Assembly: GCF_036323395.1 (NCBI RefSeq)
Contig: NZ_AP028907.1
Coordinates: forward strand, 900,001 to 932,000
Reading direction: 5' to 3'
Source of the DNA: Pyrodictium abyssi
Lineage (GTDB): Archaea; Thermoproteota; Thermoprotei_A; Sulfolobales; Pyrodictiaceae
Length of the DNA: 32,000 nt
Both the position numbers and the translations under genes were made by a program. Below, piece after piece: positions 12,738-26,971 of this stretch. Position 1 is the first letter of the stretch; every line of letters starts with the position of its first letter. The notes beneath the pieces were generated by a model, which was not told the DNA's origin, ran no database searches, and was given only the letters and a program-made list of their open reading frames with translations.

Positions 12738-12815
12738 GGGCCCGTAGCCTAGCTAGGATAGGGCGCCGGCCTTCGGAGCCGGAGGTCCGGGGTTCAAATC
12801 CCCGCGGGCCCGCCA
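12738..12815 (+). tRNA. tRNA-Arg, anticodon TCG, with genomically encoded CCA
   Basis: Hand-folded cloverleaf. Acceptor is GGGCCCG/CGGGCCC. D-arm is GCCT-AGCTAGGATA-GGGC. Anticodon arm is CCGGC-CTTCGGA-GCCGG, with positions 34-36 reading TCG and G37. Variable loop is AGGTC. T-arm is CGGGG-TTCAAAT-CCCCG. Discriminator is G, followed by CCA. It lies 34 nt downstream of the argS stop. Confidence 0.9.
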
Positions 12816-12880
12816 CACTTATAAAACCCACCATCGCCGGTAGGATAACCCTTATAAGTTTTCTCCGGTGTTTCAGCTTC

Positions 12881-13621: not shown

Positions 13622-13628
13622 GCTTGAT

Positions 13629-14210
13629 GTGAGACCCTACCCGATAGAGTTGGAGGATGTTAGGAAAATGCTTGAATACCTCAAGGACCGCCACAAGGTC
13701 TACTACACCGTTTATCGTGTTATGCTTGAGAGTGGTGCCAGGTTTGAGCACGTGCTCCGGATGATAGAGACGTGGAGCCCCAGGGAGAGGGTTGAGATAC
13801 CCGGCACTAACATCGTTACGAGGAGGCTCGTGTGCTTCGATGATAAAGGCTTCTGCCGCTACTACATGGGGCTAAGGGAGGGAACCAAGCCCTGCGAATG
13901 GGTGTACTTCTCAACGGAGACCCTGGAGTTGCTAGGCCAGGTCGCTCCCAGACATATCAACCGGCACCAGGTGAGGAAGTATGCTGAGAGGCATAATCTC
14001 GTACTACCGAAGTATATGAGGAAGGTCTCGTGGAGGCTAATGGTGAAAGCAATGAGCAGGGAGACCGCCAGATTCATACAGAGCCGCCTAGGAGAGCTGA
14101 GGATAAGTGAGGCACGCTACGAAGACCTCCTAAGCGAGGCAGACCAACAGTACCCAGCATACCTGAAGCTACTAGAGGAGACCCTATCACCATCTATAAG
14201 CAAAGTCTAG
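13629..14210 (+). CDS. Tyrosine recombinase catalytic domain (integrase C-terminal portion)
   Basis: 193 aa. By eye it shows LESGAR (box I Arg), TKPCEWVYF (beta-hairpin Lys), LPKYMRKVSWR (box II xxR), IQSRLGE (Arg at the His/Trp position, as I recall for SSV-type integrases), and SEARYEDL (candidate Tyr nucleophile). Confidence 0.6.
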   Translation: MRPYPIELEDVRKMLEYLKDRHKVYYTVYRVMLESGARFEHVLRMIETWSPRERVEIPGTNIVTRRLVCFDDKGFCRYYMGLREGTKPCEWVYFSTETLELLGQVAPRHINRHQVRKYAERHNLVLPKYMRKVSWRLMVKAMSRETARFIQSRLGELRISEARYEDLLSEADQQYPAYLKLLEETLSPSISKV

Positions 14211-14234
14211 AGAGGCTAGTTTACGGTATCAGGC

Positions 14235-14519
14235 TTACCCTATCCGCCTTTGGAACTTCTCGTATATCTCGTCCCGGTGCCCCACTGCGACTATGTAGAC
14301 GGTGTCACGGCTCGGGATGTAGCAGTAGATGAGGCGGTAGTCTCCTCTCCGGAGCTTGAAGCAGTATAGGCCCCTGAGGCTCGCCGGGAGGCGGAGCCTC
14401 TCGCCGATAAAGGGGTCTCTTTCCAGTTCCCCGACAGCCTCTAGAACCCACTCGACAACCTCCCTCGGCAATCGCTTCAAGTCGCGCCTTGCAGAACCCT
14501 CAATGCGGACCTCCGGCAA
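14235..14519 (-). CDS. RelE/ParE-family type II toxin
   Basis: 94 aa. The pattern SARRDLKRLPREVVEWVLEAVGELERDPFIGERL...LYCFKLRRGDYRLIYCYIPSRDTVYIVAVGHRDEIY is the classic RelE/ParE fold signature (a.kdl.kl.....i...i..l...P..g..l....yr.R.GdYRiiY.i......v.i..v.hR...Y). Confidence 0.75.
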   Translation of the reverse strand: MPEVRIEGSARRDLKRLPREVVEWVLEAVGELERDPFIGERLRLPASLRGLYCFKLRRGDYRLIYCYIPSRDTVYIVAVGHRDEIYEKFQRRIG

Positions 14520-14558
14520 CCCCGGCAGAACCCCGAGACGCTCAGTGCGAGGTATGGC

Positions 14559-14792
14559 TTAGGGGCTACGTTTTCCCTCCTCCCTCTTCTTCTCGCGTAG
14601 AATCTCCTCGACAGCCTCTCTGGCTGGCTCCGTGCCTCGGTCGAGTAGTATATTCAGTGTCCTTTTTGCCAGCTCGCGGCGAAACTCCTCCCTATAGACA
14701 CCCTCCTCGTCACCCTCTGGAACCTCAACCTCCACCACAACCCTAACCCGGGACGCCCCCAGAGACACCCTCACACCACCATACCAGCGCAT
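14559..14792 (-). CDS. Putative cognate antitoxin (possibly RHH-like)
   Basis: The track ORF is 14559..14852 with a GTG start. An in-frame ATG at 14792 gives MRWYGGVRVSLGASRVRVVVEVEVPEGDEEGVYREEFRRELAKRTLNILLDRG.... It sits immediately upstream of the toxin (39-nt gap, same frame) and shows a short beta-strand followed by a helix pattern. Assigned by position only. Confidence 0.4.
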   Translation of the reverse strand: MRWYGGVRVSLGASRVRVVVEVEVPEGDEEGVYREEFRRELAKRTLNILLDRGTEPAREAVEEILREKKREEGKRSP

Positions 14793-14950
14793 GCAGATAG
14801 CCACCGCATCACCGCTCCCAACATCATCGCTCCGCGGCGGCCGCCGTCCCACAGCCCCCCAAAGGGGCTCAACGGCGGCTAACCATTGCCTACTGTAGTA
14901 TGGCTCTATAGAGCTTTATTAAGGTTTCATCTGCCTAGCATTGTCTGTCT

Positions 14951-15964
14951 TCACTTCTTGCCCTGGATAAACTTCGTGAAGACTTCTATAGCGCTGGCTA
15001 GCGAGTGTGCACCAGCTTCTCTTGCTAGCTTGATCATTTTGCTTGGTGTTATGATGTTTACGTTCAAGCCTTCACTACACATCTTCATGTTTTGCTCCTC
15101 AACTGCTTTACGTACTCTGGCCTTAAATTTGTCCTCCCACTCCTCGGTAACTTCATTGAACGTTATGGCTGCTACCTCTCTTACGCATACATCTCTGCCA
15201 ATCTCGTAGCTCCGGGTCTCCTCGTATAAAGGCTTCAGCTTCCCCGCGACGAGCTTCTCTGGGCTGAGCTTCCTAGGGTTTACCTTCACCTCTGCCAGAT
15301 GTAGCTTGACAACGCCGAACTCAACATCTCTGGCTATGAGGTCCAGCTCGGTGATCTTCTCGCCAGCTACCCTAGCCCAGCGCTTCTCGGCTAGACGCCA
15401 CGCACCACCCTTCACGACTGCTAGGAAGGCTATGGCAAGGGCCTCCGCTATGTAGCCAAGTCCATCCCTGCCGACCTGCCTTAACTCATCTTCTGTAAGC
15501 CCGTGCCTAGCAATACGGTCTGCTAACTGGCCATAAGCAGCCCCAAGGTCCCGAATAAGCAGCTGTAAAGTGAAGCCAAGGTCGGAGGCAAGATCCTCCA
15601 CTGCAAACCCTATGGTGCTTCTTAGAATCTCGGGGAGACGTTCAGACAGCTCCTCAGCTATAGGGGGAGGAACAGGGATAGGGAGTGCAAGAAGAATAGT
15701 CCTTCTCAGGCTAGCTAGTAGCGTCTCTAGACTAGGCACGCACTCATAGCTGCCCGCTAGCTCCTTGAGCTTAGCTAACAATGCCGTTAGAGACCTTGGC
15801 CTATACCCACCTCCATACGTTCGTGCAAGAAACTCTACATCCGCGACAACACTATCTACTAATTCAACGAACTCCGAGTAGGGTAGACATCCCTCCCTCC
15901 GGAGCTTTGTGAATAGTTCCTCTATTCGCTCCAGTCTCCTAATCCTATCTGTGAGCGCTTTCAC
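14951..15964 (-). CDS. Uncharacterised protein with a central PD-(D/E)xK (Hjc/YraN-like) nuclease core
   Basis: 337 aa. Residues about 167-228 (nt 15281..15466) read GLGYIAEALAIAFLAVVKGGAWRLAEKRWARVAGEKITELDLIARDVEFGVVKLHLAEVKV. This gives helix-Glu, then ...ELDLIA (Asp), then ...AEVK (ExK), as in YraN (GEIDLIA...vEVK) and Hjc. The N-terminal roughly 165 aa are helical or coiled. The C-terminal roughly 100 aa are unassigned. Confidence 0.5.
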   Translation of the reverse strand: MKALTDRIRRLERIEELFTKLRREGCLPYSEFVELVDSVVADVEFLARTYGGGYRPRSLTALLAKLKELAGSYECVPSLETLLASLRRTILLALPIPVPPPIAEELSERLPEILRSTIGFAVEDLASDLGFTLQLLIRDLGAAYGQLADRIARHGLTEDELRQVGRDGLGYIAEALAIAFLAVVKGGAWRLAEKRWARVAGEKITELDLIARDVEFGVVKLHLAEVKVNPRKLSPEKLVAGKLKPLYEETRSYEIGRDVCVREVAAITFNEVTEEWEDKFKARVRKAVEEQNMKMCSEGLNVNIITPSKMIKLAREAGAHSLASAIEVFTKFIQGKK

Positions 15965-15971
15965 GTCAAAG

Positions 15972-16520
15972 CTAGCGAGCAGAGCTACCTCCCCATAATC
16001 TAGGGATTATTTTGGTAAGCTTATGTACTTGCTCTGGGCTTAGTCTCACATAGCCGGCCCTGTAGAGGGAGTAGATTACCGGGTACTTCAGATGCATGAA
16101 GACCTCGGCTATAGATTTATCATTCTCGGCTTTCTCCTCCACTAAGTGCCTCCATGTTGGTATGTTGTACTTCTCCCCGTAGCGTAGGTTATACTCAAGC
16201 TTCTCGACGTAGTCTTCTAGGCTCTTCTCTGGATCGGGGTACTCCTTCAGACACTTCTTCAACCACTCAACGGCCTCCTCCTTGGTTACTAGGGGTGGTA
16301 GCTTTCCATCCCTGGTTTTCGGACCCTTGATTGCTACTGGTAGTACTGCCCAACAAAACGCTAGCCTTCCATCGGGTATGGGTATCTTCTCCTTGACAAG
16401 CACCTCAACCCATCCAAATCCTTCTAGCCTAGCATCGTATTCTATCTCCCCGAGGATGGGATCAACAGCTCTTCTCCACTCGGATATTGTAAGAGTTTTC
16501 AATGGTTTTCGCTTCGGCAA
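15972..16520 (-). CDS. Hypothetical protein, first gene of a two-gene cassette
   Basis: 182-aa ORF with a TTG start and no upstream ATG/GTG in frame. It ends 7 nt before the start of 14951..15964 on the same strand. I recognise no motif. Confidence 0.5.
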   Translation of the reverse strand: MPKRKPLKTLTISEWRRAVDPILGEIEYDARLEGFGWVEVLVKEKIPIPDGRLAFCWAVLPVAIKGPKTRDGKLPPLVTKEEAVEWLKKCLKEYPDPEKSLEDYVEKLEYNLRYGEKYNIPTWRHLVEEKAENDKSIAEVFMHLKYPVIYSLYRAGYVRLSPEQVHKLTKIIPRLWGGSSAR

Positions 16521-16609
16521 CTCGATGTTTAGCCTGAGGTCTGACTCCTCTAGCGCTAGGAAGAAGCCTAGTACCCTCAGATACTTCTCTGGATTTACTA
16601 TCCTACCCC

Positions 16610-16847
16610 AGGGACGTGCCTAAAGTTATTGAGCTATCCAGGAAGATGTACAGGAAAATTAAACAGAAATCTAATATGGGCAACAGTGTATAGCGCATTC
16701 GCTATACCGGCTGCTGCAGGAGCATTCTACGGTATGGGGTTCCTACTGCCTCCAGCTCTAGGAGCGTTGTTCATGTCGCTAAGCACTGTGATTGTGGCAG
16801 TAAATGCTAGCCTATCTAAGATAACATTCTACGCTCCACCAATATAG
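16610..16847 (+). pseudogene. copA: 3'-terminal remnant of a heavy-metal (CopA-type) P1B-ATPase gene, carrying an internal +1 frameshift
   Basis: The frame from 16610 reads RDVPKVIELSRKMYRKIKQ. After one extra A at about 16667 the next frame reads NLIWATVYSAFAIPAAAGAFYGMGFLLPPALGALFMSLSTVIVAVNASL...*. Together these match the last two TM helices of CopA-type pumps (DLRDV..AI.LSRKT..KIKQNL.WA..YN...IP.AAG........P..A..AM..SSV.VV.NS). The roughly 700 upstream codons of such a gene are absent. Confidence 0.75.
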
Positions 16848-17109
16848 TGCTCGGCTTAAGCTCCCACATGGTCCTGGTCATTTACTGTCAGTATAGCTGA
16901 ATCTGGCTTCCCAGAAAGGCGTCATCTTTGTGCCAAGGAGTGTCAGCTATGTTGTAAGGGGCTATACAGGAATATGTGGCGCCTAGCTGCAAGCTGGATA
17001 GGATCTAAAGGGTGTGTACTGGGGTAGGGCTTGCGAGGGTTCACTCAGTATACTGAAAGGCCCGAAGATTTGTGGCACAGTACTAATTTATCATATACGA
17101 GGGGCTGTG

Positions 17110-17147
17110 TTTAAAATTGGTAAATCAAGCAGAACAAGGAATGGTGA
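17110..17147 (+). promoter_or_regulatory. Candidate TATA box (TTTAAAAT, 17110..17117) and GGTGA ribosome-binding motif (17143..17147) for the cytochrome c gene
   Basis: The AT-rich octamer lies about 40 nt upstream of ATG 17157. GGTGA lies 10 nt upstream of the ATG. Spacing is compatible with an archaeal TATA-to-TSS distance of about 25 nt and a short leader. Sequence-only guess. Confidence 0.3.
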
Positions 17148-17156
17148 GTCCTTGCC

Positions 17157-17858
17157 ATGAAGCGGCTTCTACCTGTACTCGGCATACTAGCCTTCATGGT
17201 AGTAATTGGTGATGCCGCCCTCCATGCAAGCTCGATGAGCAACGGCGCTCCCCAGCTGAACTGTGTCCAGTGCCACGTAGGCGCAGATAAGAATCCTGCA
17301 GAGCTAGTAATTGAGGGACTCCCCGAGAAGTATGGGCCAGGCAAGACCTACAAGATAACAGTCAAGATAACAAAGGGTCCCGACTGCAGTGGCGGTGTTG
17401 CCTGTGGCGGCTTTGCAGTGCAGGTTAACGCTGGCGAGCTCGTGGTAACAGACGAAAAGAACACATTCATATCCACGACGCCAACTGGCGAGAAGCTACT
17501 AACACACACCAAGGATGGCTCTATGCTGCGCGAGTGGACCTTTGAGTGGAAGGCCCCCGACAAGCCTGAGCCGGTAACATTCAAGATAGCCGTAATTGCT
17601 GCCAATGGCGACGGTAGCTTCAACGGCGATGCCTATGCGTTTAAGGAGATAAGCATTGAGCCGACCAGTGGTGAGCAGGCGCAGACCCAAACACCGACAG
17701 TAACAACCAAGGTAGTCACCGAGACAAAGACCTCTACAACGGTTACAACAACACCGGCTGGCACCGTAAAGGAGCACAATACAGCAATGGCTATCGGCGT
17801 GGCAATAGTGGTGTTCATAATAGTAGTTGGCGGCTATCTAATGCTGACAAGGAAGTAG
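17157..17858 (+). CDS. Membrane-anchored monohaem c-type cytochrome (signal peptide, CxxCH, beta-rich ectodomain, Thr-rich stalk, C-terminal TM helix)
   Basis: 233 aa. The Sec-type signal is MKRLLPVLGILAFMVVIGDAALHA. There is a single haem-c motif, CVQCH (aa 36-40, nt 17262..17276). The Thr-rich linker is QTQTPTVTTKVVTETKTSTTVTTTP (nt about 17679..17768). The hydrophobic anchor is MAIGVAIVVFIIVVGGYLML, followed by TRK. Confidence 0.75.
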   Translation: MKRLLPVLGILAFMVVIGDAALHASSMSNGAPQLNCVQCHVGADKNPAELVIEGLPEKYGPGKTYKITVKITKGPDCSGGVACGGFAVQVNAGELVVTDEKNTFISTTPTGEKLLTHTKDGSMLREWTFEWKAPDKPEPVTFKIAVIAANGDGSFNGDAYAFKEISIEPTSGEQAQTQTPTVTTKVVTETKTSTTVTTTPAGTVKEHNTAMAIGVAIVVFIIVVGGYLMLTRK

Positions 17859-17876: not shown

Positions 17877-17930
17877 TTTTGGATAGCTGAATCGTCAAAG
17901 TTCAAGATATTTTTAATAACTATTATTTTC
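17877..17930 (+). terminator. T-tract-rich region downstream of the cytochrome c gene (candidate archaeal intrinsic terminator, possibly also a promoter for the next gene)
   Basis: T4 at 17877..17880, T5 at 17910..17914 and T4 at 17926..17929, all within AT-rich sequence. Confidence 0.3.
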
Positions 17931-18090: not shown

Positions 18091-19116
18091 ATGCCAGGTA
18101 GTGATGCGAGCGATAACACCGTCGAAGTATTCTGTATGGGAGGACTGGTATCGGAGAAGTGCACGAAAATTGTTGAGACACAACTCGATGAAACCAGTGC
18201 CGCCATAGACCTGATCGACAGTGTCTGGGCGAAAGAGCCGTCTAAACCGATACTACTTGTAGCGCCAGCGCTTAGCGGCTTCAGTAAGCTGCTAGAGGAG
18301 CTGAGCGAGCTTGGCAGAAACCCGTTCCTTGTAGAGGCAACCGGGATACCCGAGACCATATTGTCCGGGCTTTCTCTCGACAACATCATTGAGTACTGGG
18401 TGGGCATGCTAGTAGCGACTCTCGCAGAGAGAAAGAGTGCTCGACGAAGAAGCCCACGTGTCTCGCGGCGAGAGGTTCTGCGCCGCCTATTCCTAATACC
18501 TCCGAGGTACGTGATGCTGCCCAAACTCCGATCAACGCCAGTAGTTTGTAGACAGGATACCGTGTGCCCATTCTCCGCCTTGGAGGCAGGTAGGCTAGAT
18601 GAGGCCAAGTGCCAGGGCTGTATGCTCTGCGCTTGGGCGTGTCCAGAGAGCGTCGAGGCCCCGCTTTGGACGGGGCCTCTGGGGCTTCTCTACGCTTACC
18701 GATTCGTAGACGAATACGGGCTCGATGGCATACTCTTCATATGCCGTAGTAGGCTCGAGCGGCTAGACAGCTCAGCGGTCGAGGCCAGCCCGGCACGGCT
18801 CCTCCCCTTCCATGTACCGTGCGTGGGTTGGCTTGGTCCTGGGCTGCTCAGAGCACTAGCAGATCTCGGAGTTTATGTACACGTCTATGCTGGTAGGGAT
18901 GTGTGTCGTGGATGTGGCCTGGAGGCTGCTGGCGTTGGTGCAGCTGGTATGCTTGCTGCAAGCAGTATACGTGTTGGCGAGAATCTAGCCGAGGCGGGTG
19001 CAGCGGCGTTCACCGGCTATATGAGGCCAAGGAGGAGTCTTGAAGAGGTCGCTGAAAAAATGACGAAAGCTCTCGGGGTACCAGCTTCACATACTTCACA
19101 GAGGGAGCACAGCTAA
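18091..19116 (+). CDS. Iron-sulfur protein: 4Fe-4S ferredoxin motif fused to an MvhD/FlpD-like C-terminal domain
   Basis: The track ORF is 18019..19116, with in-frame ATGs at 18031, 18091 and 18136; the start is uncertain. It contains CPFSALEAGRLDEAKCQGCMLCAWACPE (a ferredoxin-type cluster). This is followed by ILFICRSRLERLD...LLPFHVPCVGWLGPGLLRALADLGVYVHVYAGRDVCRGCGLE, which mirrors the MvhD/FlpD pattern (C-containing strand ... vpC.G.v.p..il.Af..GadgV.v.gC....C). Confidence 0.5.
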   Translation: MPGSDASDNTVEVFCMGGLVSEKCTKIVETQLDETSAAIDLIDSVWAKEPSKPILLVAPALSGFSKLLEELSELGRNPFLVEATGIPETILSGLSLDNIIEYWVGMLVATLAERKSARRRSPRVSRREVLRRLFLIPPRYVMLPKLRSTPVVCRQDTVCPFSALEAGRLDEAKCQGCMLCAWACPESVEAPLWTGPLGLLYAYRFVDEYGLDGILFICRSRLERLDSSAVEASPARLLPFHVPCVGWLGPGLLRALADLGVYVHVYAGRDVCRGCGLEAAGVGAAGMLAASSIRVGENLAEAGAAAFTGYMRPRRSLEEVAEKMTKALGVPASHTSQREHS

Positions 19117-19117
19117 T

Positions 19118-20086
19118 CTAGTCTAGTCTCGTAGAGATACGGATATTGTCTATCCCTGTTCTCTTGAGCGGAAGCAGCTTTGAGGCCCTTTCGATAGCTG
19201 CTACACAGTCCTTGTCGGGTTCTCCGTGTTCTCCTGTCCTGCAGTAGACTCTAAGCTCTCCGTCCTGCCGGTCCACGTGTAGTATGTAGGGCTCGCCAGG
19301 GCCCAGAGCCTCGATGAGCGCCAGTGTACGTGAGTCCTCGTGCTCCATCCTGTCTATGTAGTCTCGGAGCACCTCTAGGGCTTCCTTGCCCCTTTCGCCG
19401 AGAAGCGCGATCAGGTTATCCTCTCCTACTGTGCTCAGCCGCCTCTCTAGCAGCTCGTGGGGAGAGCCTGGGCCCTCGACGAGGAAGTGGAGGAGTCCGG
19501 CCAGTATAGTGGTGTGGCTGGCGCCTATGAGGGCTAGCCATGACACAGCCTCTCCATAGTGTAGCCTACCGCGGCCATACTCGTAGTTCAGGGCAAGAGC
19601 CATGATGGGTGAGAGCTGGGACGCGCCTCCGGTTGCTCTGAGTGCAGCGTAGAGGCCGGTTAGCCCGGCCAGGCCTTGTATCCGGGGCCTCGGCATCTTG
19701 CCGTAGAGCTGCTCTAGTAGAGTGGCGGCCTCCTCTACTGCCTTGCTCGGCTCTTCGCCGCTGCGGTAGACACGGTGGGCGGCTAGTGCTAGGAGGCACT
19801 GGTCGGGGCTCACTCCGCACACGATGACGGAAGGCTCTGAGTCGAGGAGTACAGCAGCCGTGTAGAGGCCTACATAGTCTGCTCTTTTGGTGTCTATGGT
19901 CTCGGCTACAACGTCGTAGCCGAGGAACACGTAGTCGCCATAAACGTCTGCGTAGAATTCGTCAAGCAGTAGTATTCTCTGGCCTGGTTCGAGTACTTCG
20001 TCCAACCCAGGCCCAACTATGAGTATATGGTTGTTGTAGCGTGCTGTGGCCGGCATTCCAGCTTGTACCCCGCCACGCTGCTTCAA
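19118..20086 (-). CDS. Hypothetical protein (no recognisable family)
   Basis: 322-aa ORF with a TTG start at 20086 and an alternative ATG at 20056. Convergent with 18091..19116 (1-nt gap) and divergent from the napA-like gene. Codon usage looks native. The antisense ORFs 19324..19509, 19566..19820 and 19642..19827 were rejected. Confidence 0.5.
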   Translation of the reverse strand: MKQRGGVQAGMPATARYNNHILIVGPGLDEVLEPGQRILLLDEFYADVYGDYVFLGYDVVAETIDTKRADYVGLYTAAVLLDSEPSVIVCGVSPDQCLLALAAHRVYRSGEEPSKAVEEAATLLEQLYGKMPRPRIQGLAGLTGLYAALRATGGASQLSPIMALALNYEYGRGRLHYGEAVSWLALIGASHTTILAGLLHFLVEGPGSPHELLERRLSTVGEDNLIALLGERGKEALEVLRDYIDRMEHEDSRTLALIEALGPGEPYILHVDRQDGELRVYCRTGEHGEPDKDCVAAIERASKLLPLKRTGIDNIRISTRLD

Positions 20087-20258: not shown

Positions 20259-23200
20259 TTGCCGGATGAGACTCGTAGAGATGTACTCAAGGCTATAGCT
20301 CTTGGTGCTGCCCTAGCTGCTGTAGGTGGTGTAGTCACATACTACGGTACTGGTAGAGAGAAGACGGTCTACGAGACAGTGACCAAGACGCTCACCGAGA
20401 CCCTAACAAAGACTGTGACCGAGACGATAACTCCTGGCCAGACTACCACTACAACCACAAAGGCTGAGGAGACCCAGCCTGCGAAGCCCAAGCTAGCTGT
20501 CGTCCCCGTAGGCCCCTGCAGGTTCTGTGGCGTTGGCTGCGGTGTCCAGGCGCAAGTGATACTGGACCCGCAGACCGGCATGGCTAAGGACATAGTAGCA
20601 CTAATGGGTATACCAGAATACCCCGTCAACAGGGGTGCACTCTGCACCAAGGCCTTCTACATTCACAAGGCAATAGGTTATGGTGGCAACAAGCAGGCGT
20701 TTGAGCAGAGGCTCAAGAAGCCACTGGTAATCAAGGACTGGATTATACCCGGCAAGAATAGGCCACCAATAACACCCGAGGAGATACCAGAGGCGCCTAG
20801 AGTCAAGAACCGCCAGGTAAGCAAGAACGTTGATGCTACAGTGCCCACGGTGGAGCACATAAAGAAGAACTATGTCGAAGTAGACTGGGACACTGCTGTA
20901 AAGTTCTTCACCGCAATGATGAAGTATGTTCTCCAGAAGTACGGCCCACACGGCTTCGCCTACTATGGTAGCGGCCAGCTAGGCACCGAGGAGAGCTACG
21001 CCATAAACAAGCTAACAAAGGCGGGCATACACACCAACAACCTAGACGGCAACCCGCGAATGTGTATGGTCAGCGCAGTCGGCGGCTTCATAACAAGCTA
21101 CGGTGCAGACGAGCCCGAAGTAAGCTACGACCACATAGACATACCAGAGCCCGATACTGGCGTACACGCCGACACGTTCCTACTAATAGGCACAAACACG
21201 GCAGAAGCCCACCCCATAGTATTCGGTCGTATTGCACAGGTGAAGCAGAAGAACCCCGACAAGGTCAAGGTTATACTAGCTGACCCCCGTAAGACAAGGA
21301 GCGGAAGCATCGCCGACCTATGGCTCCCGCTACGCTGGAGCATGGACGTGGCATTCCTCAACACTCTAGCCCACATACTAGCATTCGACCTAGACAAGTG
21401 TAGGGTAGACGCTAAGACCGGCAAGGTAGAGTGTAAGGGCGAGTACATAGACATAACCTGGCTAAAGCGCCACGCAGACTTCGCAATACCCGTCAACACT
21501 GCCAAGACATGGGCACTCAAGGAGTACAACAACAAGTACAACAACATGGGAGACCTAAACAAGGTCTGGGACATGGGTACAACAGCAAGCAACGCAGCAA
21601 ACTACAAGCTCTACCCAAGCGTCGGCAAGGAGTATAAGAGCGAAGACGAGGTAGAGAAGGACTGGTGGAAGGGCTTCGCGCTCTACCTAAAGTTCCTCGA
21701 GCTATACAAGCCAGAGATAATGGTGAAGATACTATTCGGCGACGAGAAGCCGCTAATCAGCAGGAAGACCGCTGAGCAGCTAATAAAGGCGGGTGAGCTG
21801 AGCCCAGACAAGGTAAACATGGCCAGCAACGAGCCGTTCGTCGAGATCGACCCGATAGAGGCTATGAGGCTAGCAGCTAAGTGGATGGCGAAGGGCAGGC
21901 TCCTCGTATTCTGGACGATGGGTGTCAACCAGAAGATCCAGGGCGTACACTCGGTCAACAGCATAATCAACATACTTGCCCTCACGGGCCAGATAGGCAA
22001 GTATGGCGCCGGTAGCTTTAGCCTCACCGGCCAGCCAAACGCTTGTGGCGGTATCCGTGACCAGGGCGGTCTGGCACACGTACTACCCTATGGCAGGCTT
22101 ATCGCCAAGAAGGCTGCTAGGGAGCAGGTAGAGAACATCTGGAAGAAGCTGACCGAAGAATACCTGAAGGAGCGCGGCTACTCGCCAGATGCCATAAAGA
22201 AGGAGGTAGAGAAGGTCTACGTACACCCGGTACCAGGCCCGCACGTAGTAGAGATGTTCCGCCGCGTCAACGCTGGCCAGCTAAAGATAGTCTGGATAGC
22301 CGAGACAAACCCAGGCCACAGCCTACCAAACGTGTTCAAGTTCCGCGCTGGCATGGCTAAGCCACACGACGATGACCCAGCGTTCCCGTTCATAGTAGTC
22401 AGCGACATCTACCCGACAAGGACAACCGACCTGGCGGACCTCGTACTGCCGGCAGCAGCATGGGGCGAGAAGGAGTTCAAGTACGGTTGTAGCGAGCGCC
22501 GCTACAGCGTAGCCAGGTACATAATACCGCCGCCAGGCGAAGCGGTAGGCGACCACATGATATTCGCGATGATAGGTAAGGCGCTAGAAGATGAGGGTCT
22601 AGTGCCAAAGGGTGTCGTAAGCGGCTTCTTCCCAGAGGATGTAGACAAGGCGGCTAAGGCTGCTGGTAAGAGCTGGGTACAGTACATAGTTGAGAAGAGC
22701 CGCGACAAGAAGTGGCATGAGGAGTTCCTCAACAGAGTATGGGACCGCGACATACTAAGCCTCGCCAAGAACACCTATTACGACTTCAGCTACGTGAAGC
22801 GTGAGGCATTCAGGAAGATGGTAAACGGCTTCCGCTGGCCATGGCCAGAGCAGTATGCTACCAACCCAAGCGTGAAGATGCGCTACGACAAGTACCAGTC
22901 TGCTAGCAGGTTCGCATACCCGTACGACCCGCTGATGCCAGATCCAGAGGTAATTAAGAAGATATACAACGACATAAAGGGCATGGACAGCGCTGAAGAG
23001 ATAGCAGCATACATAAGCAAGCTAGACCCCAACGTGGTACACCCAGTACACAAGGCCAAGTGGCTAGGCAAGCTATCGCACAACCCGGTGCTAATGAAGT
23101 GGGTGCTAAAGCACATAGTAGAGGAGATAGACGACCAGGCCTACAAGAAGGCAAGCAAGGTGCCGGTCGACTGGTATGTAGTGTTCTACGCTAAGCCTAC

Positions 23201-24023
23201 AGGCAGGATGACAATATGGGCTAGGCCGTGGCTACCAATAACCATGGACCATGAGACCGGTGAAGTAAAGATAAACAAGGAGGTCATAATAACCAGAGAG
23301 GCGCTAGACGTAGACACGGTGTTCAAGGGCAAGATATCGGTATTCAGCGAGCCAAAGGGCCCGTTCAAGGTACTTGAGAAGCACAAGGCCCTACCGGCCA
23401 GCGGCGACCCAGAGAAGGGCCTGCAGGTGCTAGCCACAAAGACTTGGGGCGAGGCCCTCCGGACAAACCGTGGCGACATAGAGGCGATCTTCGAGATAGC
23501 GCTAGCTCCGGCAGAGGCGCCAGGCTTCTCACTCAAGTACAAGCTCGACAACGGCCAGGTAATAACAGTGAGAGATGCTACTGGCTATGAGCTAGTAGCC
23601 ACCACCGGCCGTATAGTAGAGCACTGGCACACAGGAACAATGACAGGTAGAGTACCAGAACTCAAGCGTGTAAAGCCGGCAGCATACGTCGAGATACACA
23701 AGAAGCTGGCCGAGAAGCTAGGCATAAAGGACGGCGACTGGGTGACAGTAGAGAGCCCACGCGGCAAGGTAACCGTAAAGGCTGTGGTACTAGACCCGAA
23801 GACAGGCCTTGGCGGCCCCAGAATGGACTACGTGTTCATACCATGGTTCGACGAGAACAAGCTGGCGAACGCGCTAACACTAGACAACTACGACGTGCAG
23901 CCGTACTTCTTCCAGCCAGACTACAAGACATGCGCAGCGAGGATAAGGAAGGCGACGCCAGACGAGATACCCAAGAGCGAAGTCGAGCAGACCGGTAAGC
24001 CCAAGTACAGTATAAGAGTCTAA
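20259..24023 (+). CDS. napA: NapA-like molybdopterin (Mo-bisPGD) oxidoreductase catalytic subunit with Tat signal and Thr-rich stalk; unusually long at 1254 aa
   Basis: The Tat motif is [21 protein letters not shown]. The TxT repeat is [28 protein letters not shown] (nt 20364..20492). The [4Fe-4S] motif is [10 protein letters not shown]...[14 protein letters not shown], which closely resembles the E. coli-type NapA motif CRFCGTGCGV...PVNRGLNCIKGYF. The Mo-Cys context is [17 protein letters not shown]. Other NapA-like blocks are [59 protein letters not shown] and [11 protein letters not shown]. Confidence 0.85.
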   Translation: [1254 protein letters not shown]

Positions 24024-24053: not shown

Positions 24054-24503
24054 CACACTTAGACCGTATCGCACTGTTTCTCAGAATTCCGTAAACGCGG
24101 GCTCCAGCTCTTTAGGCGGTATCATGCTGTGATTTCTCCTAGAGGCGGTTACCGGACGGCTTCAATTCTTTTGTAGGACTTCTTAGGGATGTAAAATAGA
24201 ATGCGTAAACTGCTTCTTGGCGGTCGTCGTGTGTGACATGACGGCTAATAGTTGTCCAGGTTATTTGTCGAGGCGTGGCGTGTGCAACATCGTATGTAGT
24301 GTGCGCCGAAAAAGAGCGGTGTAGAGTTATTCGCTGGAGCTATGAGCGGCTTGTAACGAGGAGCTGAAGTAAGCGGGGCCACGTTCATAAGGAAGATTTG
24401 ATAGTGTTAATCAAGTGAATGTGAGTATTTTGCTATGTGGTGGTATGGTAGGAAGCGTCAGTGTACTAAGCTATATGTAGCTCACATGGAGGAATGGTTA
24501 AAG

Positions 24504-25508
24504 ATGAATAGGAGAACGGAAAGACGTGGCATTACGCGTAGAGAATTCATTAATGCAGGTATAGTGATTGCTGCTGCTACGGCTCTGGCTTCTTCAAGGC
24601 TGCTAGTAGTGGGTGTTTCAGCGGATTCTGGTGGTCCTGTTGGAGGCGGCGAATACTATGAGCCATTCTTCATAGAGGGTGATAATGAGCGTATCATGTA
24701 TTATGAGGCTTTGGGCTTCGTGGTCGATGTTGATGGTAGGAAGTGTGTAGCCAACCCCCTCTTACCGGGCAAGTGTATGGTGTACACGAAGCAGTACTAC
24801 GATGATAGGTTTGTACTCTTACCGCCAGGCGCTACGGAAGACTTCTATGGCCGGTGCATTCGCTGTGGTTTGTGCTACTTTGCGTGCCACTATATGGGGT
24901 ATAATGCGATAAAGCTAGCCGGGCTTAGTAGGGGTCTCCGCGAGCTCGGTGCACCTATAGTCGATGATATGATGAAATATCCGTGTACTCTGTGTATGGA
25001 GTGTACTAAGGTGTGTCCGACGGGGGCGCTTGAGGAGATACCTAAGGAAGAAGTGAAAATGGGTATAGCTCTCATAGACCCGGACCTCTGCTGGGCATGG
25101 AATAGTGGTGACTGTAAGAGCTGTGCTAAGGCGTGTCCCTTCGGCTCAGAAGTATTCGAATTCACGTATAACGAGTGGGGCGTTCACACGAAAGTGAACC
25201 CGGAGAAGTGTAAAGGGTGTGGTCTCTGTATACCTGCATGTCCTATAGGTGGCTCCGCCATACATGTGCTTCCTGTTGACGAGTATGAGCGTAGGGTAAA
25301 GAACTACAAGAACACTGACATGAGCTACGAGGAATATCTCAAACTGATACTCGAGACGGAGCGCACCGACCCGTTTAAGGCTACATGGAGGACGGCGATA
25401 AACACGGACTACATCTTGAATGTTAGGGGCTTGGAGGAGGAGAAGATCGAGACCGAGCTGGGCACTAGCAGTACAGGCATGAAACCAGCCAGCAACAATA
25501 AACAATAA
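24504..25508 (+). CDS. napG: NapG-like Tat-exported poly-ferredoxin (four 4Fe-4S motifs)
   Basis: The track ORF is 24435..25508. I prefer ATG 24504 (MNRRTERRGITRREFINAGIVIAAATALA), which places the twin-arginine motif at a normal distance from the N-terminus. The Cys clusters are CIRCGLCYFAC, CTLCMECTKVCP, CKSCAKACP and CKGCGLCIPACP. Confidence 0.75.
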   Translation: MNRRTERRGITRREFINAGIVIAAATALASSRLLVVGVSADSGGPVGGGEYYEPFFIEGDNERIMYYEALGFVVDVDGRKCVANPLLPGKCMVYTKQYYDDRFVLLPPGATEDFYGRCIRCGLCYFACHYMGYNAIKLAGLSRGLRELGAPIVDDMMKYPCTLCMECTKVCPTGALEEIPKEEVKMGIALIDPDLCWAWNSGDCKSCAKACPFGSEVFEFTYNEWGVHTKVNPEKCKGCGLCIPACPIGGSAIHVLPVDEYERRVKNYKNTDMSYEEYLKLILETERTDPFKATWRTAINTDYILNVRGLEEEKIETELGTSSTGMKPASNNKQ

Positions 25509-25527: not shown

Positions 25528-26475
25528 ATGGGTGATACATACATGCCTCCACGCAGTGGTCTTGCCCGCAGGCTCTGGCTCACTATTCGCGGTGTACCGC
25601 CCCGTGGCAGGTATACCGTGGCTAGAAGGTTGATGCAGATAATAGTACTAAGCTTGTTTACAACTCAGCTACTAGTCTCGGGGGCAATCATTGCAGGCAG
25701 CCTCGCCTCGAGCAGGATATTCAACACGATACCCATGATGGATGTGTTCGCCTGGCTAGAACAAACAGCTGCAACACGCAGTCCGACATTCGAATCCGTT
25801 ATAGCTGTACTAGTAGTGTTCACGCTCTACAGCGTCCTGGGACGCTTCTTCTGCGGCTGGGTCTGCCCAATGGACCTAGTCTTTAGCCTATTTGAACGCA
25901 AGCTCTCGGGCCCAAGAGCGGCACCTCTAACAAGACCGCATAGCGCAGGACGTGTAGAGACGGCTATACCACTAGTGATGATGGCTATATACCTCGTGCT
26001 ATCAGTGCTACTAGGCCAGCCATTCTTCACTACAGTATCGCCGGTAGCGGGCATGACGAAGCTAGGCTCTACGCTTGTCGGCGTGATCTATAATATCCCT
26101 GGGGCTGCAATAGGGCTGGTCATGGCCTGGGCCACTATTACAGGGTTCGCTCTCATAGTAAACATAATAGCAGAGTATGTATTCGGCGTGAAGAGGCTCT
26201 GGTGCCGGTTCATCTGCCCTATAGGCAACACGTATGGTTACGTAATGAACCGCTATAGCCCTCTCCGCATAAAGGTGACAAGTGTAGAGAAGTGTAAGGG
26301 CTGTAACCTCTGTAGCATGGCATGTCCGATGAGCATAGACCTCCTGGAATACATACAGAGCGGAAGAGACGTTAGCGACTATAGGTGCTTCAAGTGCGGT
26401 CGCTGCATCGAGGCATGTCCGCATGGTGTGCTAAAGCTAGGCTTCAGCATCAAGAGAAGCAAAGACAAGCAGTAG
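25528..26475 (+). CDS. napH: NapH-like (NapH/MauN/NosR-type) integral membrane iron-sulfur protein
   Basis: 315 aa with about four hydrophobic helices. Two CxxCP motifs are embedded after TM helices (GRFFCGWVCPMD and RLWCRFICPIGN). The C-terminus carries two ferredoxin motifs, CKGCNLCSMACP and CFKCGRCIEACP. Confidence 0.8.
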   Translation: MGDTYMPPRSGLARRLWLTIRGVPPRGRYTVARRLMQIIVLSLFTTQLLVSGAIIAGSLASSRIFNTIPMMDVFAWLEQTAATRSPTFESVIAVLVVFTLYSVLGRFFCGWVCPMDLVFSLFERKLSGPRAAPLTRPHSAGRVETAIPLVMMAIYLVLSVLLGQPFFTTVSPVAGMTKLGSTLVGVIYNIPGAAIGLVMAWATITGFALIVNIIAEYVFGVKRLWCRFICPIGNTYGYVMNRYSPLRIKVTSVEKCKGCNLCSMACPMSIDLLEYIQSGRDVSDYRCFKCGRCIEACPHGVLKLGFSIKRSKDKQ

Positions 26476-26587: not shown

Positions 26588-26971
26588 GTGGATGACGGAT
26601 TGGCTTTCGCTGCAGGCTTTCTCCTCCTAACCCCTCATTACCGTGACGAGCCTAAAAGGCGTGAGGTAAAACAGTACCTGGAGAATCTAGGCTTCGAACT
26701 CTACGAGGTCGGCAAACAAGCATTCATAGTATTCTACGTAGAGGCGCCCAACCCTAAGGCCCTTGAGGACGTCATTAAGATGGCAGAACAGCACGACGGT
26801 GTAGCAAAGGCATACATAGCTTTCGGCTTTATGGGCGACGATGCCGTTAGGGAGTGGATTAATGACGCTCTGGCTAGAGGCGAACTTGAGCTAGACGAGA
26901 GCACAAAAGAATACATACGAGGCATCTTGGCCAAGATAGCCCCGGACAAACTACGCGCTCAATCCCCGTAA
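26588..26971 (+). CDS. Small cytoplasmic protein with a NapD-like ferredoxin-fold core (tentative)
   Basis: 127 aa with a GTG start. The segment GFLLLTPHYRDEPKRREVKQYLENLGFELYEVGKQAFIVFYVEAPNPKALEDVIKMAEQHDGVAKAYIAFGF lines up by eye, element for element, with E. coli NapA-chaperone NapD (SLVVQAKSERISDISTQLNAFPGCEVAVSDAPSGQLIVVVEAEDSETLIQTIESVRNVEGVLAVSLVYH). The position after napAGH supports the call. The fold pattern is common (ACT/Lrp-like), so confidence is low. Confidence 0.35.
   Translation: MDDGLAFAAGFLLLTPHYRDEPKRREVKQYLENLGFELYEVGKQAFIVFYVEAPNPKALEDVIKMAEQHDGVAKAYIAFGFMGDDAVREWINDALARGELELDESTKEYIRGILAKIAPDKLRAQSP

What the first reader, a model, noticed from the sequence alone, without database searches (positions are those of the whole stretch)
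17157..17858. Membrane-tethered monohaem cytochrome c with a matching Thr-rich stalk: candidate stand-in for NapB/NapC
Seen: the protein has a Sec-type signal peptide and a single CVQCH close to the mature N-terminus. A roughly 130-aa beta-rich domain follows (GKTYKITVKITKG, GGFAVQVNAGELVV, VTFKIAVIAANGDG). Next come a Thr-rich linker (QTQTPTVTTKVVTETKTSTTVTTTP) and a C-terminal TM helix with a basic tail. The TxT low-complexity style is the same as at the N-terminus of the NapA-like protein 2.4 kb away, but here it sits at the opposite terminus.

Established: c-type cytochromes are uncommon in Crenarchaeota and need a dedicated maturation system. Haem near the N-terminus, a beta-sandwich and a C-terminal anchor together form the cytochrome f style of architecture (analogy only).

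Inference: both proteins are displayed at a similar height on the outer face of the membrane, and this cytochrome may relay electrons to the NapA-like enzyme in place of NapB/NapC.
Basis: partly seen in the sequence, partly recalled or inferred. Interest (0 to 1): 0.58.

Follow-up and report, generated by a model that had tools for sequence, protein, structure and literature searches.

The report
Reeler-fold cytochrome partner of long NapA
This small membrane-tethered protein is probably a one-haem cytochrome with an unusual beta-sandwich (Reeler) fold, and its gene accompanies an oversized periplasmic-type nitrate reductase in both archaea and bacteria, so it is the likely stand-in for the missing NapB subunit.

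Summary
ORF 17157-17858 (+) of Pyrodictium abyssi encodes a 233-aa protein with four parts: a signal peptide, an invariant CxxCH at residues 36-40, a confidently modelled beta-sandwich, then a Thr-rich linker and a C-terminal TM helix.

It is not a new family. Kletzin et al. 2015 listed it as a "hypothetical monohaem cytochrome c" modelled on the F-spondin reelin-N domain. NCBI calls it choice-of-anchor V. Haem binding has never been shown.

I found no report of the linkage to Nap. The gene sits in a conserved block with a 1250-aa NapA-like enzyme, NapG and NapH in four Pyrodictiaceae genera. In 22 bacterial genome loci plus one from an unnamed archaeon (Nitrospirota, Kryptonia, Bacteroidota and others), a soluble homologue lies directly upstream of the same "long NapA".

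The reverse test agrees. Of the metagenome loci found through a long-NapA-specific insertion, 32 of 32 that retain upstream sequence carry the Reeler-CxxCH gene.

No NapB, NapC or NapM is present in the window. The best reading is a NapB-analogous electron relay between NapG and NapA; the NapC role belongs to NapGH.

Caveats:
- Haem is unproven.
- Relatives with CxCH exist, some fused to oxidase subunit I.
- Ignicoccus and some other loci keep the gene without an adjacent Nap cluster.
- The cytochrome f analogy is not supported by fold search.

The parts
17110..17116 (+). TTTAAAA, a TATA-box-like element about 40 nt upstream of the ATG. A GGTGA Shine-Dalgarno-like motif lies at 17143-17147.
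   Evidence: Read from the sequence. The 100 bp upstream of the ATG are 83.6% identical to P. delaneyi, whereas everything further upstream is an insertion.
17157..17234 (+). Sec-type signal peptide (aa 1-26), with predicted cleavage before Met27 (..HASS|MSNGAP).
   Evidence: Hydrophobic h-region at aa 1-19. A small-x-small residue pattern followed by MSNGAP is conserved in archaeal homologues. The cleavage site is inferred.
17235..17660 (+). Reeler / choice-of-anchor V beta-sandwich domain (aa 27-168).
   Evidence: NCBIfam NF041895 at E 3e-29, 102 bits against a cutoff of 42. Pfam Reeler at 21.2 bits against a cutoff of 21. AF2 pLDDT about 90 or higher across most of the domain. Foldseek hits F-spondin reeler domains 2zot and 3coo.
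17262..17276 (+). CVQCH (Cys36, Cys39, His40): the putative haem c attachment site with its proximal His.
   Evidence: Invariant in all 36 aligned homologues, in all Nap-linked genome loci and in 32/32 metagenome loci.
17505..17507 (+). His117 (THT motif): candidate distal haem ligand.
   Evidence: Invariant in the 28 Nap-linked sequences and present in 31/32. Largely conserved across the wider superfamily. The ligand role is inferred.
17385..17405 (+). Cys77 and Cys83: probable disulfide, not haem ligands.
   Evidence: Both are lost together in one subgroup, where another Cys pair appears instead. Both are absent from bacterial homologues.
17661..17771 (+). Thr-rich linker or stalk (aa 169-205).
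   Evidence: 13 T per 25 aa. AF2 pLDDT below 50, so disordered. Present in archaeal homologues and absent from bacterial ones.
17772..17858 (+). C-terminal TM helix (aa ~206-229), basic tail TRK and stop codon.
   Evidence: Kyte-Doolittle score 1.99. AF2 models a helix at aa 209-232.
17910..17929 (+). T-rich tracts (TTTTT, TTTT) downstream of the stop codon. They are terminator-like, and also TATA-like for the next gene.
   Evidence: Read from the sequence. The function is inferred.
18091..19116 (+). orf341: a cytoplasmic Fe-S protein with one ferredoxin-type 4Fe-4S motif. Demey et al. call it NapF-like.
   Evidence: Pfam Fer4. It is syntenic with the cytochrome gene in all Pyrodictiaceae loci, including L007, which lacks Nap.
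19118..20086 (-). orf321: a conserved protein of unknown function on the opposite strand.
   Evidence: Syntenic. Its P. delaneyi orthologue Pyrde_1153 was detected only in nitrate-grown cells.
20259..24023 (+). Long NapA-like Mo-bisPGD enzyme (1254 aa). It has a TAT motif (TRRD), an N-terminal hydrophobic anchor, a Thr-rich stalk and then the catalytic domain.
   Evidence: Pfam and NCBIfam hits. Best PDB hit is the D. desulfuricans monomeric NapA at E 6e-116, with the Mo-Cys motif GNPRMCMVSAVGG conserved. N-terminus read.
24435..25508 (+). NapG-like poly-ferredoxin with a TAT motif. The likely true start is the Met at 24504.
   Evidence: NCBIfam NapG at E 5e-27. Sequence read.
25528..26475 (+). 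NapH-like membrane quinol dehydrogenase subunit.
   Evidence: NCBIfam NapH at E 4e-45.
26588..26971 (+). orf127: a possible NapD-like chaperone.
   Evidence: Weak Pfam NapD hit at E 0.021, below the cutoff. Syntenic.

Best explanation
The ORF encodes the archaeal, membrane-tethered form of a conserved Reeler-fold (choice-of-anchor V) monohaem c-type cytochrome. This cytochrome is the dedicated small redox partner of a distinct 'long NapA' periplasmic-type nitrate reductase.

Proposed mechanism:
1. The protein is exported by Sec.
2. The Ccm system attaches haem to Cys36 and Cys39. His40 is the proximal ligand, and the conserved His117 is the likely distal ligand.
3. The beta-sandwich sits on a roughly 40-residue Thr-rich stalk above a C-terminal TM helix.
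4. The NapA-like enzyme is held at the same face by an uncleaved TAT signal-anchor with a similar stalk.
5. Electrons flow from menaquinol to NapH, then NapG, then the Reeler cytochrome, then the NapA [4Fe-4S] cluster, then Mo-bisPGD, and finally to nitrate.

In this scheme the protein takes the place that NapB (or NapM) has in other Nap systems.

Shown: the architecture, motif conservation, the fold, reciprocal gene linkage across Bacteria and Archaea, the presence of maturation genes, and expression of the orthologue as protein.

Inferred: haem attachment, the ligand set, the direction and partners of electron transfer, and nitrate as substrate in P. abyssi.
For: Architecture and motif.

Fold: Reeler.

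Synteny in archaea: cyt-orf341-orf321(-)-NapA-NapG-NapH-orf127 is conserved in P. delaneyi, Hyperthermus butylicus, Pyrofollis japonicus and MAGs despite different flanks. It is rearranged but still contiguous in L006, L010 and L020.

Forward test: in 22 bacterial loci plus one archaeal locus (L022-L043), the CxxCH homologue lies directly upstream of a 1110-1135-aa NapA-like gene that is about 40% identical to the window's over about 1180 aa. Where the contig extends far enough, NapG and NapH follow.

Reverse test: loci were found using only the long-NapA-specific insertion. All 32 that retain upstream sequence have the Reeler-CxxCH ORF, and the 11 without it are all cut at the NapA 5' end.

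Nitrogen-oxide context in bacteria: an octahaem NrfA-like gene sits upstream in 19 of the 22 L022-L043 loci, one of them the archaeon L025. A ResB haem-lyase gene lies inside three clusters.

The NapA-like enzyme is closest to the NapB-independent monomeric NapA of D. desulfuricans and keeps the Mo-ligand Cys motif.

No other CxxCH ORF is present in the window.

Maturation genes: Ccm genes in P. delaneyi (PMC5556600), near the locus in Pyrofollis, and a CcmC/CcsA-family protein in P. abyssi.

Expression: the orthologue Pyrde_1151 was detected as protein (PMC8105010 supplement).

Prior modelling: Kletzin et al. found a cleft able to hold haem (PMC4429474).

Rosetta-stone hint: a related domain plus TM helix is fused to oxidase subunit I in marine group II/III archaea.
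Against: Haem binding has never been demonstrated for any member.

In P. delaneyi the haem-stained bands that were analysed ran at 110-160 kDa on 8% gels, so they say nothing about a 25-kDa protein.

79 of the top 202 superfamily representatives carry CxCH at the same position. To my knowledge CxCH is not a known haem c attachment motif. The conserved Cys-Cys-His could therefore serve another purpose.

The eukaryotic Reeler domain used as modelling template is a non-haem protein.

Ignicoccus (two paralogues), L008, L016-L018 and L021 have the gene with no adjacent Nap genes. L007 keeps only cyt+orf341+orf321.

Pyrde_1151 is roughly 50-fold lower in TMT intensity than NapA and is not regulated by nitrate versus iron.

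In P. abyssi the gene appears monocistronic and lies 2.4 kb from napA.

One metagenome homologue has Asn in place of His117.

From my own knowledge, P. abyssi and H. butylicus are not described as nitrate respirers.
Confidence: 0.55

Rival explanations
1. It is a genuine monohaem cytochrome c but a general-purpose, membrane-tethered electron shuttle of the pseudo-periplasm. It would serve several oxidoreductases (multihaem/NrfD complexes, sulfur reductase and others) and is merely parked next to nap in the Pyrodictiaceae.
For: The gene is retained without adjacent Nap genes in Ignicoccus pacificus (two paralogues), L008, L016-L018 and L021. In L018 and Pyrofollis it lies divergently next to a c7-like multihaem/Fer4_11/NrfD complex, and in L018 the Nap block is absent. 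It is constitutive in P. delaneyi under nitrate and Fe(III) and far less abundant than NapA. It has its own promoter and terminator-like signals.
Against: The pairing with long NapA is reciprocal and universal outside the Desulfurococcales: 22 bacterial loci and one archaeal locus forward, and 32/32 reverse, with gaps of roughly 100-300 bp or less. That is the signature of a dedicated subunit. Whether the genomes lacking an adjacent Nap cluster carry a long NapA elsewhere was not tested.
Confidence: 0.2
2. It carries no haem. The Reeler domain would be a structural, docking or metal-binding (for example Cu or Fe) accessory of the long NapA. The two Cys would form a disulfide or, together with His40 and His117, a metal site. 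Its role would be assembly, stabilisation or tethering rather than electron transfer.
For: CxCH and C-x(4-8)-CH variants occupy the same position in many relatives, and the CH and His117 are the conserved core. The closest solved folds are non-haem: the F-spondin reeler domain, cohesin, and the Cu-binding YcnI, which to my knowledge is also tethered by a C-terminal TM. No haem evidence exists.
Against: Within every Nap-linked member the spacing is strictly CxxCH: all 28 Nap-linked sequences and 32/32. All host lineages checked have cytochrome c maturation genes, and some clusters embed ResB. All known Nap systems place a c-type cytochrome before NapA, and this is the only candidate in the module.
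Confidence: 0.15
3. Its ancestral partner is the octahaem NrfA-like nitrite reductase rather than NapA. In this reading it would deliver electrons from NapGH to nitrite reduction, and in the Pyrodictiaceae it is a leftover or has been re-purposed.
For: In 19 of the 22 L022-L043 genome loci and most metagenome loci, the order is NrfA-like, Reeler, NapA, NapG, NapH, with no NrfH.
Against: Several bacterial loci have Reeler+NapA+NapGH without an adjacent NrfA-like gene: L028, L029 and L033, and L061, L063, L065-L067, L069, L085 and L086. Every Pyrodictiaceae cluster lacks it as well. NapA is therefore the invariant neighbour.
Confidence: 0.07

Closest known systems
Cluster 38 'hypothetical monohaem cytochromes c' Igni_0759 / Igni_1052 of Ignicoccus hospitalis, with Pyrolobus and Hyperthermus homologues (Kletzin et al. 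2015, PMC4429474)
   Same: It is the same protein family. Hyperthermus, Pyrolobus and Ignicoccus proteins are among the direct homologues. They share the N-terminal CxxCH, the spondin/reelin-N fold and the optional C-terminal TM helix.
   Different: That paper did not link the family to any enzyme or gene cluster. It also left the distal ligand open between Cys77 and His111. Here Cys77 is shown to covary with Cys83, which points to a disulfide, and the His is the conserved residue. The linkage to long NapA is added here.
NapB, the dihaem small subunit of NapAB periplasmic nitrate reductase
   Same: The proposed position in the chain is the same: a small exported c-type cytochrome that feeds the NapA [4Fe-4S] cluster and is encoded in the nap cluster alongside NapGH.
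   Different: There is no sequence or fold relationship, and no Pfam NapB hit at E<=1. This protein has one CxxCH rather than two, is a beta-sandwich rather than (from my own knowledge of NapB) a small helical dihaem protein, and is membrane-tethered in archaea.
NapM, the tetrahaem cytochrome of NapB-less Nap systems (Desulfovibrio desulfuricans, Thermosulfurimonas; PMC5276818)
   Same: It is a precedent for a monomeric-type NapA using a non-NapB cytochrome encoded immediately upstream of napA. The window's NapA-like enzyme is most similar to D. desulfuricans NapA.
   Different: NapM has four haems and a cytochrome c3/c7-like fold. The protein here is a monohaem Reeler fold. In addition, the NapA here carries about 400 extra residues of insertions.
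Eukaryotic Reeler domain (F-spondin 2ZOT/3COO; reelin; FRRS1/SDR2)
   Same: The fold matches (Foldseek E 1e-5). The Pfam Reeler model also hits relatives.
   Different: The solved eukaryotic domain is a non-haem protein. By my recollection, the eukaryotic domains have C-x2-M-x-P-x-H rather than CxxCH.
Cytochrome f
   Same: The gross layout is similar: a haem motif near the mature N-terminus, a beta-rich ectodomain and a single C-terminal TM anchor.
   Different: It does not appear among the top 50 structural matches. The N-terminal residue Met27 is not conserved in bacterial homologues, so an alpha-amino ligand like that of cytochrome f is unlikely.
YcnI (DUF1775), a copper-binding protein of Bacillus subtilis
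   Same: It is a structural match (7mek/7me6, E 2e-4). Both are extracytoplasmic beta-sandwiches. From my own knowledge, YcnI has its metal site at the mature N-terminus and a C-terminal TM tether.
   Different: YcnI binds Cu, by my recollection through an N-terminal His brace. It has no CxxCH and no link to Nap.

Membership tests
c-type cytochrome (covalent haem via CxxCH) | A CxxCH motif in an exported polypeptide | tested here: met
   CVQCH at aa 36-40, about 10 residues after the predicted signal-peptide cleavage site. The motif is invariant across homologues.
c-type cytochrome (covalent haem via CxxCH) | A cytochrome c maturation system encoded by the organism | tested here: met
   P. abyssi encodes a CcmC/CcsA-family protein, PABY_02420. 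P. delaneyi has ccmA, B, C and F (PMC5556600). CcmF, CcmA and CcmC lie 7-10 kb from the orthologue in Pyrofollis. A complete set in P. abyssi itself was not checked.
c-type cytochrome (covalent haem via CxxCH) | Covalently bound haem demonstrated by haem stain, spectrum or mass | not testable with these tools
   No experimental evidence was found for any family member.
Reeler / choice-of-anchor V domain | Match to the family HMM above its curated cutoff | tested here: met
   NF041895 at 102 bits against a cutoff of 42. Pfam PF02014 at 21.2 bits against a cutoff of 21, which is borderline.
Reeler / choice-of-anchor V domain | Reeler beta-sandwich fold | tested here: met
   The AF2 domain has pLDDT of about 90 or higher. 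F-spondin reeler domains are ranks 2-3 in Foldseek against the PDB.
NapB | Dihaem protein homologous to Pfam NapB (PF03892) | tested here: not met
   There is only one CxxCH. There is no NapB hit in Pfam at E<=1 or in NCBIfam at E<=0.01. It is a functional analogue at most.
NapC/NirT | Tetrahaem quinol dehydrogenase with an N-terminal TM anchor | tested here: not met
   It has one haem motif, a cleavable N-terminal signal and a C-terminal anchor. NapG and NapH homologues are present to oxidise quinol.
Cytochrome f | Cytochrome f fold with the N-terminal alpha-amino group as haem ligand | tested here: not met
   No cytochrome f appears in the top 50 Foldseek hits. The mature N-terminal residue is not conserved outside the archaea.
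Nap system (the gene cluster as a whole) | NapA-type catalytic subunit with a Mo-ligand Cys, a TAT signal and an Fe4S4 domain | tested here: met
   The best PDB hits are NapA proteins, led by 2NAP at E 6e-116. The motif GNPRMCMVSAVGG aligns to the Cys140 region. TAT motif TRRD seen. However, the NCBIfam NapA score of 396 bits is below the equivalog cutoff of 904, so this is a divergent 'long' clade.
Nap system (the gene cluster as a whole) | Nitrate reductase activity of this enzyme | not testable with these tools
   Nitrate reductase activity was measured in P. delaneyi extracts, and Pyrde_1154 is abundant there (PMC8105010). The activity has not been assigned to the purified enzyme, and there are no data for P. 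abyssi.

The most novel reading that the evidence does not exclude
The Reeler / choice-of-anchor V domain may be a widespread, unrecognised class of extracytoplasmic beta-sandwich redox domains. On this reading, the CxxCH forms are haem c cytochromes that act as the obligate NapB-equivalent of a distinct 'long NapA' nitrate reductase family shared by Pyrodictiaceae, Nitrospirota, Kryptonia, Bacteroidota and others. The CxCH forms, fused with a TM helix to haem-copper oxidase subunit I in marine group II/III archaea, would be the electron-entry module of those oxidases with a different or atypically bound cofactor. The eukaryotic Reeler domain next to DOMON and cytochrome b561 in FRRS1 might descend from the same redox module.
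Probability: 0.3. Interest if true: 0.8.

Novelty: new variant of a known kind. Interest (0 to 1): 0.64.

Why it matters
All characterised Nap systems hand electrons to NapA through a c-type cytochrome (NapB, NapC or NapM). Here a structurally unrelated Reeler-fold protein takes that genomic position in a large NapA clade that is uncharacterised as far as I could find. The clade spans hyperthermophilic archaea and environmentally important bacteria, including Nitrospirota and Thermodesulfovibrionia.

If confirmed, it would do three things:
- It would define a new Nap subtype, often coupled to an octahaem nitrite reductase, which suggests a nitrate-to-ammonium (DNRA-type) module.
- It would add a new fold to the c-type cytochromes.
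- It would give the first functional handle on prokaryotic Reeler domains.

It also shows how partners that are soluble in bacteria were converted into stalk-tethered membrane proteins in archaea that lack a closed periplasm.

Tried and rejected
- **Cytochrome f-like fold.** Rejected: Foldseek against the PDB gave no cytochrome f in the top 50.
- **Met27 or the N-terminal amine as distal ligand.** Rejected: Met27 is replaced by H, F, S or N in bacterial homologues.
- **Cys77 as distal ligand (Kletzin's option).** Rejected: Cys77 and Cys83 are lost together and replaced by another Cys pair, and both are absent in bacteria.
- **Sequence search of the PDB with the protein.** Only insignificant hits.
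- **att-site direct repeats for the upstream insertion.** None found.
- **Taxon names for distant representatives via the listing of cluster members.** No names returned.
- **Loci for the Pyrolobus homologue P0039 and for P. abyssi CcmC (P0345).** Not on record.
- **Was the 'NapB' reported for Ca. Sulfobium this protein?** No. That locus has a canonical 923-aa NapA with a separate 185-aa napB.
- **The 'napB' (K02568) reported for an Antarctic Pyrodictiaceae MAG.** It could not be traced in the supplements.
- **My guess that ORF 16629-16847 is a P-type ATPase fragment.** Pfam gave no support.
- **Literature search for Reelin domain + cytochrome c + molybdopterin.** Zero papers.
Full report
**Origin and observation**

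The window is part of the Pyrodictium abyssi chromosome. The ORF product is 100% identical to a P. abyssi protein that NCBI names "choice-of-anchor V domain-containing protein" and UniRef names "Reelin domain-containing".

- Hydrophobic segments lie at aa 1-19 and aa 206-224+.
- CVQCH sits at aa 36-40. It is the only CxxCH among the 113 six-frame ORFs of at least 60 aa in the whole 32-kb window.
- An AlphaFold2 model built on 36 homologues has pLDDT of about 90 or higher for aa ~41-170, with nine strands. It models a disordered linker (pLDDT below 50 for aa 178-200) and a terminal helix at aa 209-232.
- The Thr-rich linker has 13 T in 25 residues, and the N-terminus of the NapA-like ORF 20259..24023 has 14 T in 25. 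These are the only two such segments in any ORF of at least 100 aa in the window.

**What the protein is**

Pfam gives a borderline Reeler hit of 21.2 bits against a cutoff of 21. NCBIfam gives a solid choice_anch_V hit at E 3e-29, covering aa 28-164 and so including the CxxCH.

Foldseek against the PDB returns a cohesin, then the F-spondin reeler domains 2ZOT and 3COO, then pilins and the Cu-binding YcnI. No cytochrome f appears in the top 50. A sequence search of the PDB gave nothing significant.

The family is not new. Kletzin et al. 2015 (PMC4429474) described Igni_0759 and Igni_1052 of Ignicoccus hospitalis, with homologues in Pyrolobus and Hyperthermus, as "hypothetical monohaem cytochromes c" (their cluster 38). 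They modelled them on the F-spondin reelin-N domain, found a cleft able to hold haem, and left the distal ligand open between Cys77 and His111. No experiment has shown haem in any member.

**Conservation**

In 36 aligned archaeal homologues, S28, G30-A31-P32, C36, C39, H40, GGFA, T116-H117, R125, W127, W131-x-A-P and others are invariant.

Cys77 and Cys83 are lost together in one subgroup, which gains another Cys pair instead. Both are absent from bacterial homologues. They therefore look like a disulfide, not a haem ligand.

Met27, the probable mature N-terminus, is not conserved in bacteria.

His117 is invariant in the 28 Nap-linked sequences and present in 31 of 32 further ones. It is the best candidate for the distal ligand.

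- P. delaneyi encodes ccmA, B, C and F (PMC5556600).
- In Pyrofollis japonicus, CcmF, CcmA and CcmC lie 7-10 kb from the orthologue.
- A search with the Pyrofollis CcmC found orthologues in Hyperthermus, P. delaneyi, P. occultum, Ignicoccus and P. abyssi (PABY_02420, on the same 2,224,219-bp chromosome).

The refutation condition "no maturation system" therefore fails.

**Gene context in archaea**

In the window the order is as follows:

- the cytochrome gene;
- orf341, an Fe-S protein at 18091-19116;
- orf321 on the minus strand;
- the 1254-aa NapA-like enzyme;
- a NapG-like gene;
- a NapH-like gene;
- orf127, with a weak NapD hit.

The same block occurs with different flanking genes in P. 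delaneyi, Hyperthermus butylicus, Pyrofollis japonicus and several MAGs. It is rearranged but still contiguous in L006, L010 and L020.

In P. abyssi the cytochrome gene has its own TTTAAAA box and a GGTGA motif. It is followed by T-tracts and a roughly 230-bp spacer.

The upstream region 12816-17056 is a 4.24-kb insertion at the 3' end of tRNA-Arg that carries an integrase and is absent from P. delaneyi. Homology to P. delaneyi resumes 100 bp before the ATG.

Some loci lack the Nap block:

- Ignicoccus pacificus, both paralogues;
- L008, L016-L018 and L021;
- L007, which keeps only cyt+orf341+orf321;
- L018, where the gene sits next to a c7-like multihaem/Fer4_11 complex, as in Pyrofollis, but the Nap block is missing.

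**Gene context beyond the Desulfurococcales: the decisive result**

A profile search of 1.84 billion representatives shows a large superfamily: 4354 representatives at E<=1e-3.

A scan of one genome per GTDB species returned 47 loci. Twenty-two of these, L022-L043, form the Nap-linked group: 21 from bacteria and one from an unnamed archaeon (L025). The bacterial lineages are Nitrospira and other Nitrospirota, Thermodesulfovibrionia, Dissulfurispiraceae, Caldimicrobium, Kryptonia and Bacteroidota.

In every one of these 22 loci, a soluble homologue of about 165 aa with CxxCH lies directly upstream of a 1110-1135-aa TAT-exported NapA-like gene. That gene is about 40% identical to the window's over about 1180 aa. 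Where the contig extends far enough, NapG- and NapH-like genes follow.

I then ran the reverse test. An alignment of only the clade-specific insertion of the long NapA (window NapA residues 860-1110) was used to scan metagenome contigs.

- 43 loci were found.
- 32 retain sequence upstream of the NapA start, and all 32 carry a Reeler ORF with CxxCH immediately upstream.
- The 11 loci without it are all cut at or inside the 5' end of NapA.

The pairing is thus reciprocal and, where it can be evaluated, universal.

In 19 of the 22 genome loci and in most metagenome loci, an octahaem NrfA-like gene (Pfam Cytochrom_C552) precedes the Reeler gene. In three clusters a ResB haem-lyase gene and a PpiC gene sit between NapA and NapG. 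This places the module in nitrate/nitrite respiration and in a cytochrome c context.

**The NapA-like enzyme**

Its best solved relative is the monomeric, NapB-independent NapA of Desulfovibrio desulfuricans (E 6e-116). The Mo-ligand Cys motif is conserved: GNPRMCMVSAVGG against GNPRLCMASAVGG. About 400 residues of insertions are shared by the archaeal and bacterial members.

It scores below the NCBIfam NapA equivalog cutoff, at 396 bits against 904. It is therefore a divergent "long NapA" clade.

In P. delaneyi, nitrate reductase activity was measured in extracts, and Pyrde_1154 is abundant under both nitrate and Fe(III) growth (PMC8105010). Precedent for NapB-less Nap systems with another cytochrome (NapM) encoded upstream of napA exists (PMC5276818).

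**Tethering**

In the Pyrodictiaceae the NapA-like protein begins with a TAT motif (TRRD), a hydrophobic segment and a T/K/E-rich linker before the Fe4S4 domain. The bacterial enzymes have ordinary TAT signals and no linker.

The cytochrome shows the mirror pattern. Archaeal forms carry a C-terminal linker and TM helix, while bacterial forms stop after the domain.

Both partners were therefore converted from soluble to stalk-tethered proteins in the archaeal lineage.

**Expression**

The P. delaneyi orthologue Pyrde_1151 was detected by TMT proteomics at similar levels on nitrate (86-168) and ferrihydrite (68-77), with padj of 1. NapA scored 3500-8300. Pyrde_1153, the orthologue of orf321, was seen only on nitrate.

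The haem-stained bands analysed in that study ran at 110-160 kDa on 8% gels. They are uninformative for a 25-kDa protein.

**Caveat from the superfamily**

Of the top 202 representatives, 108 have CxxCH, 79 have CxCH and a few have longer spacings. The CH, His117, W127 and W131-x-A-P are the common core.

The CxCH forms come from marine group II/III archaea and related lineages and are not near Nap genes. In L044-L046 and L049 the domain plus one TM helix is fused in frame to haem-copper oxidase subunit I (COX1 at E 1e-154).

This cuts both ways. It suggests the domain is a redox module attached to terminal oxidoreductases. But to my knowledge CxCH is not a known haem c attachment motif, so the conserved Cys-Cys-His may have a non-haem role in at least part of the family.

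**Conclusion**

The most likely reading, at confidence of about 0.55, is a Reeler-fold monohaem cytochrome c that acts as the NapB-analogous electron relay between NapG and the long NapA. In archaea it is tethered to the membrane.

The rivals are:

- a general electron shuttle that is not specific to Nap (0.2);
- a non-haem structural or metal-binding accessory (0.15);
- a donor primarily for the NrfA-like nitrite reductase (0.07).

The protein family is known, although its function was only predicted. I found no description of its obligate pairing with a distinct NapA clade across two domains of life. That makes this a new variant of a known kind of system, and one that is directly testable.

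Noticed in passing
L045:416-2653 (also L044, L046, L049): In marine group II/III archaea, a Reeler/choice-of-anchor V domain carries CxCH instead of CxxCH. With one TM helix it is fused in frame to the N-terminus of haem-copper oxidase subunit I (745 aa; Pfam COX1 at aa 242-687, E 1e-154). 79 of the top 202 superfamily representatives have CxCH. The cofactor is unknown.
   Followed up: partly
window 12816-17056: A 4.24-kb insertion relative to P. delaneyi lies exactly at the 3' end of tRNA-Arg(TCG) 12738-12815. It carries an archaeal integrase (13629-14210; Pfam PF16795, PHROG 5127) and three ORFs with no family hits. No flanking direct repeat was found. It ends 100 bp upstream of the cytochrome ATG.
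   Followed up: partly
window 19118-20086 (-): This conserved 321-aa ORF has no Pfam or NCBIfam hit and sits between orf341 and the NapA-like gene on the opposite strand. Its P. delaneyi orthologue Pyrde_1153 was detected only in nitrate-grown cells (padj 3.8e-8). That makes it the only nitrate-specific product of the cluster.
   Followed up: no
L007:10001-12841; L018:7794-10624: The trio cyt+orf341+orf321 persists in a vent metagenome contig with no Nap genes within 10 kb. In another Pyrodictiaceae MAG, the cytochrome gene sits beside a c7-like multihaem/Fer4_11 complex and the whole Nap block is absent.
   Followed up: partly
L027:8143-9858; L041:13912-16272: In the bacterial versions of the module, an octahaem NrfA-like cytochrome gene lies immediately upstream. 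This holds for 19 of the 22 L022-L043 genome loci, one of which is the archaeon L025. In three loci a ResB (system II haem lyase) gene and a PpiC isomerase gene lie between NapA and NapG. Together these suggest a compact nitrate-to-ammonium module without NrfH.
   Followed up: partly
window 20259-24023: The NapA-like enzyme carries about 400 residues of insertions relative to D. desulfuricans NapA, for example at aa 383-531 and 881-1108. The archaeal and bacterial members share them, and they define a 'long NapA' clade. The insertions are candidate docking surfaces for the Reeler protein.
   Followed up: partly
window 26588-26971: This 127-aa ORF downstream of NapH has only a weak NapD hit (E 0.021, 15.4 bits against a cutoff of 28). 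It is syntenic in all Pyrodictiaceae clusters.
   Followed up: no
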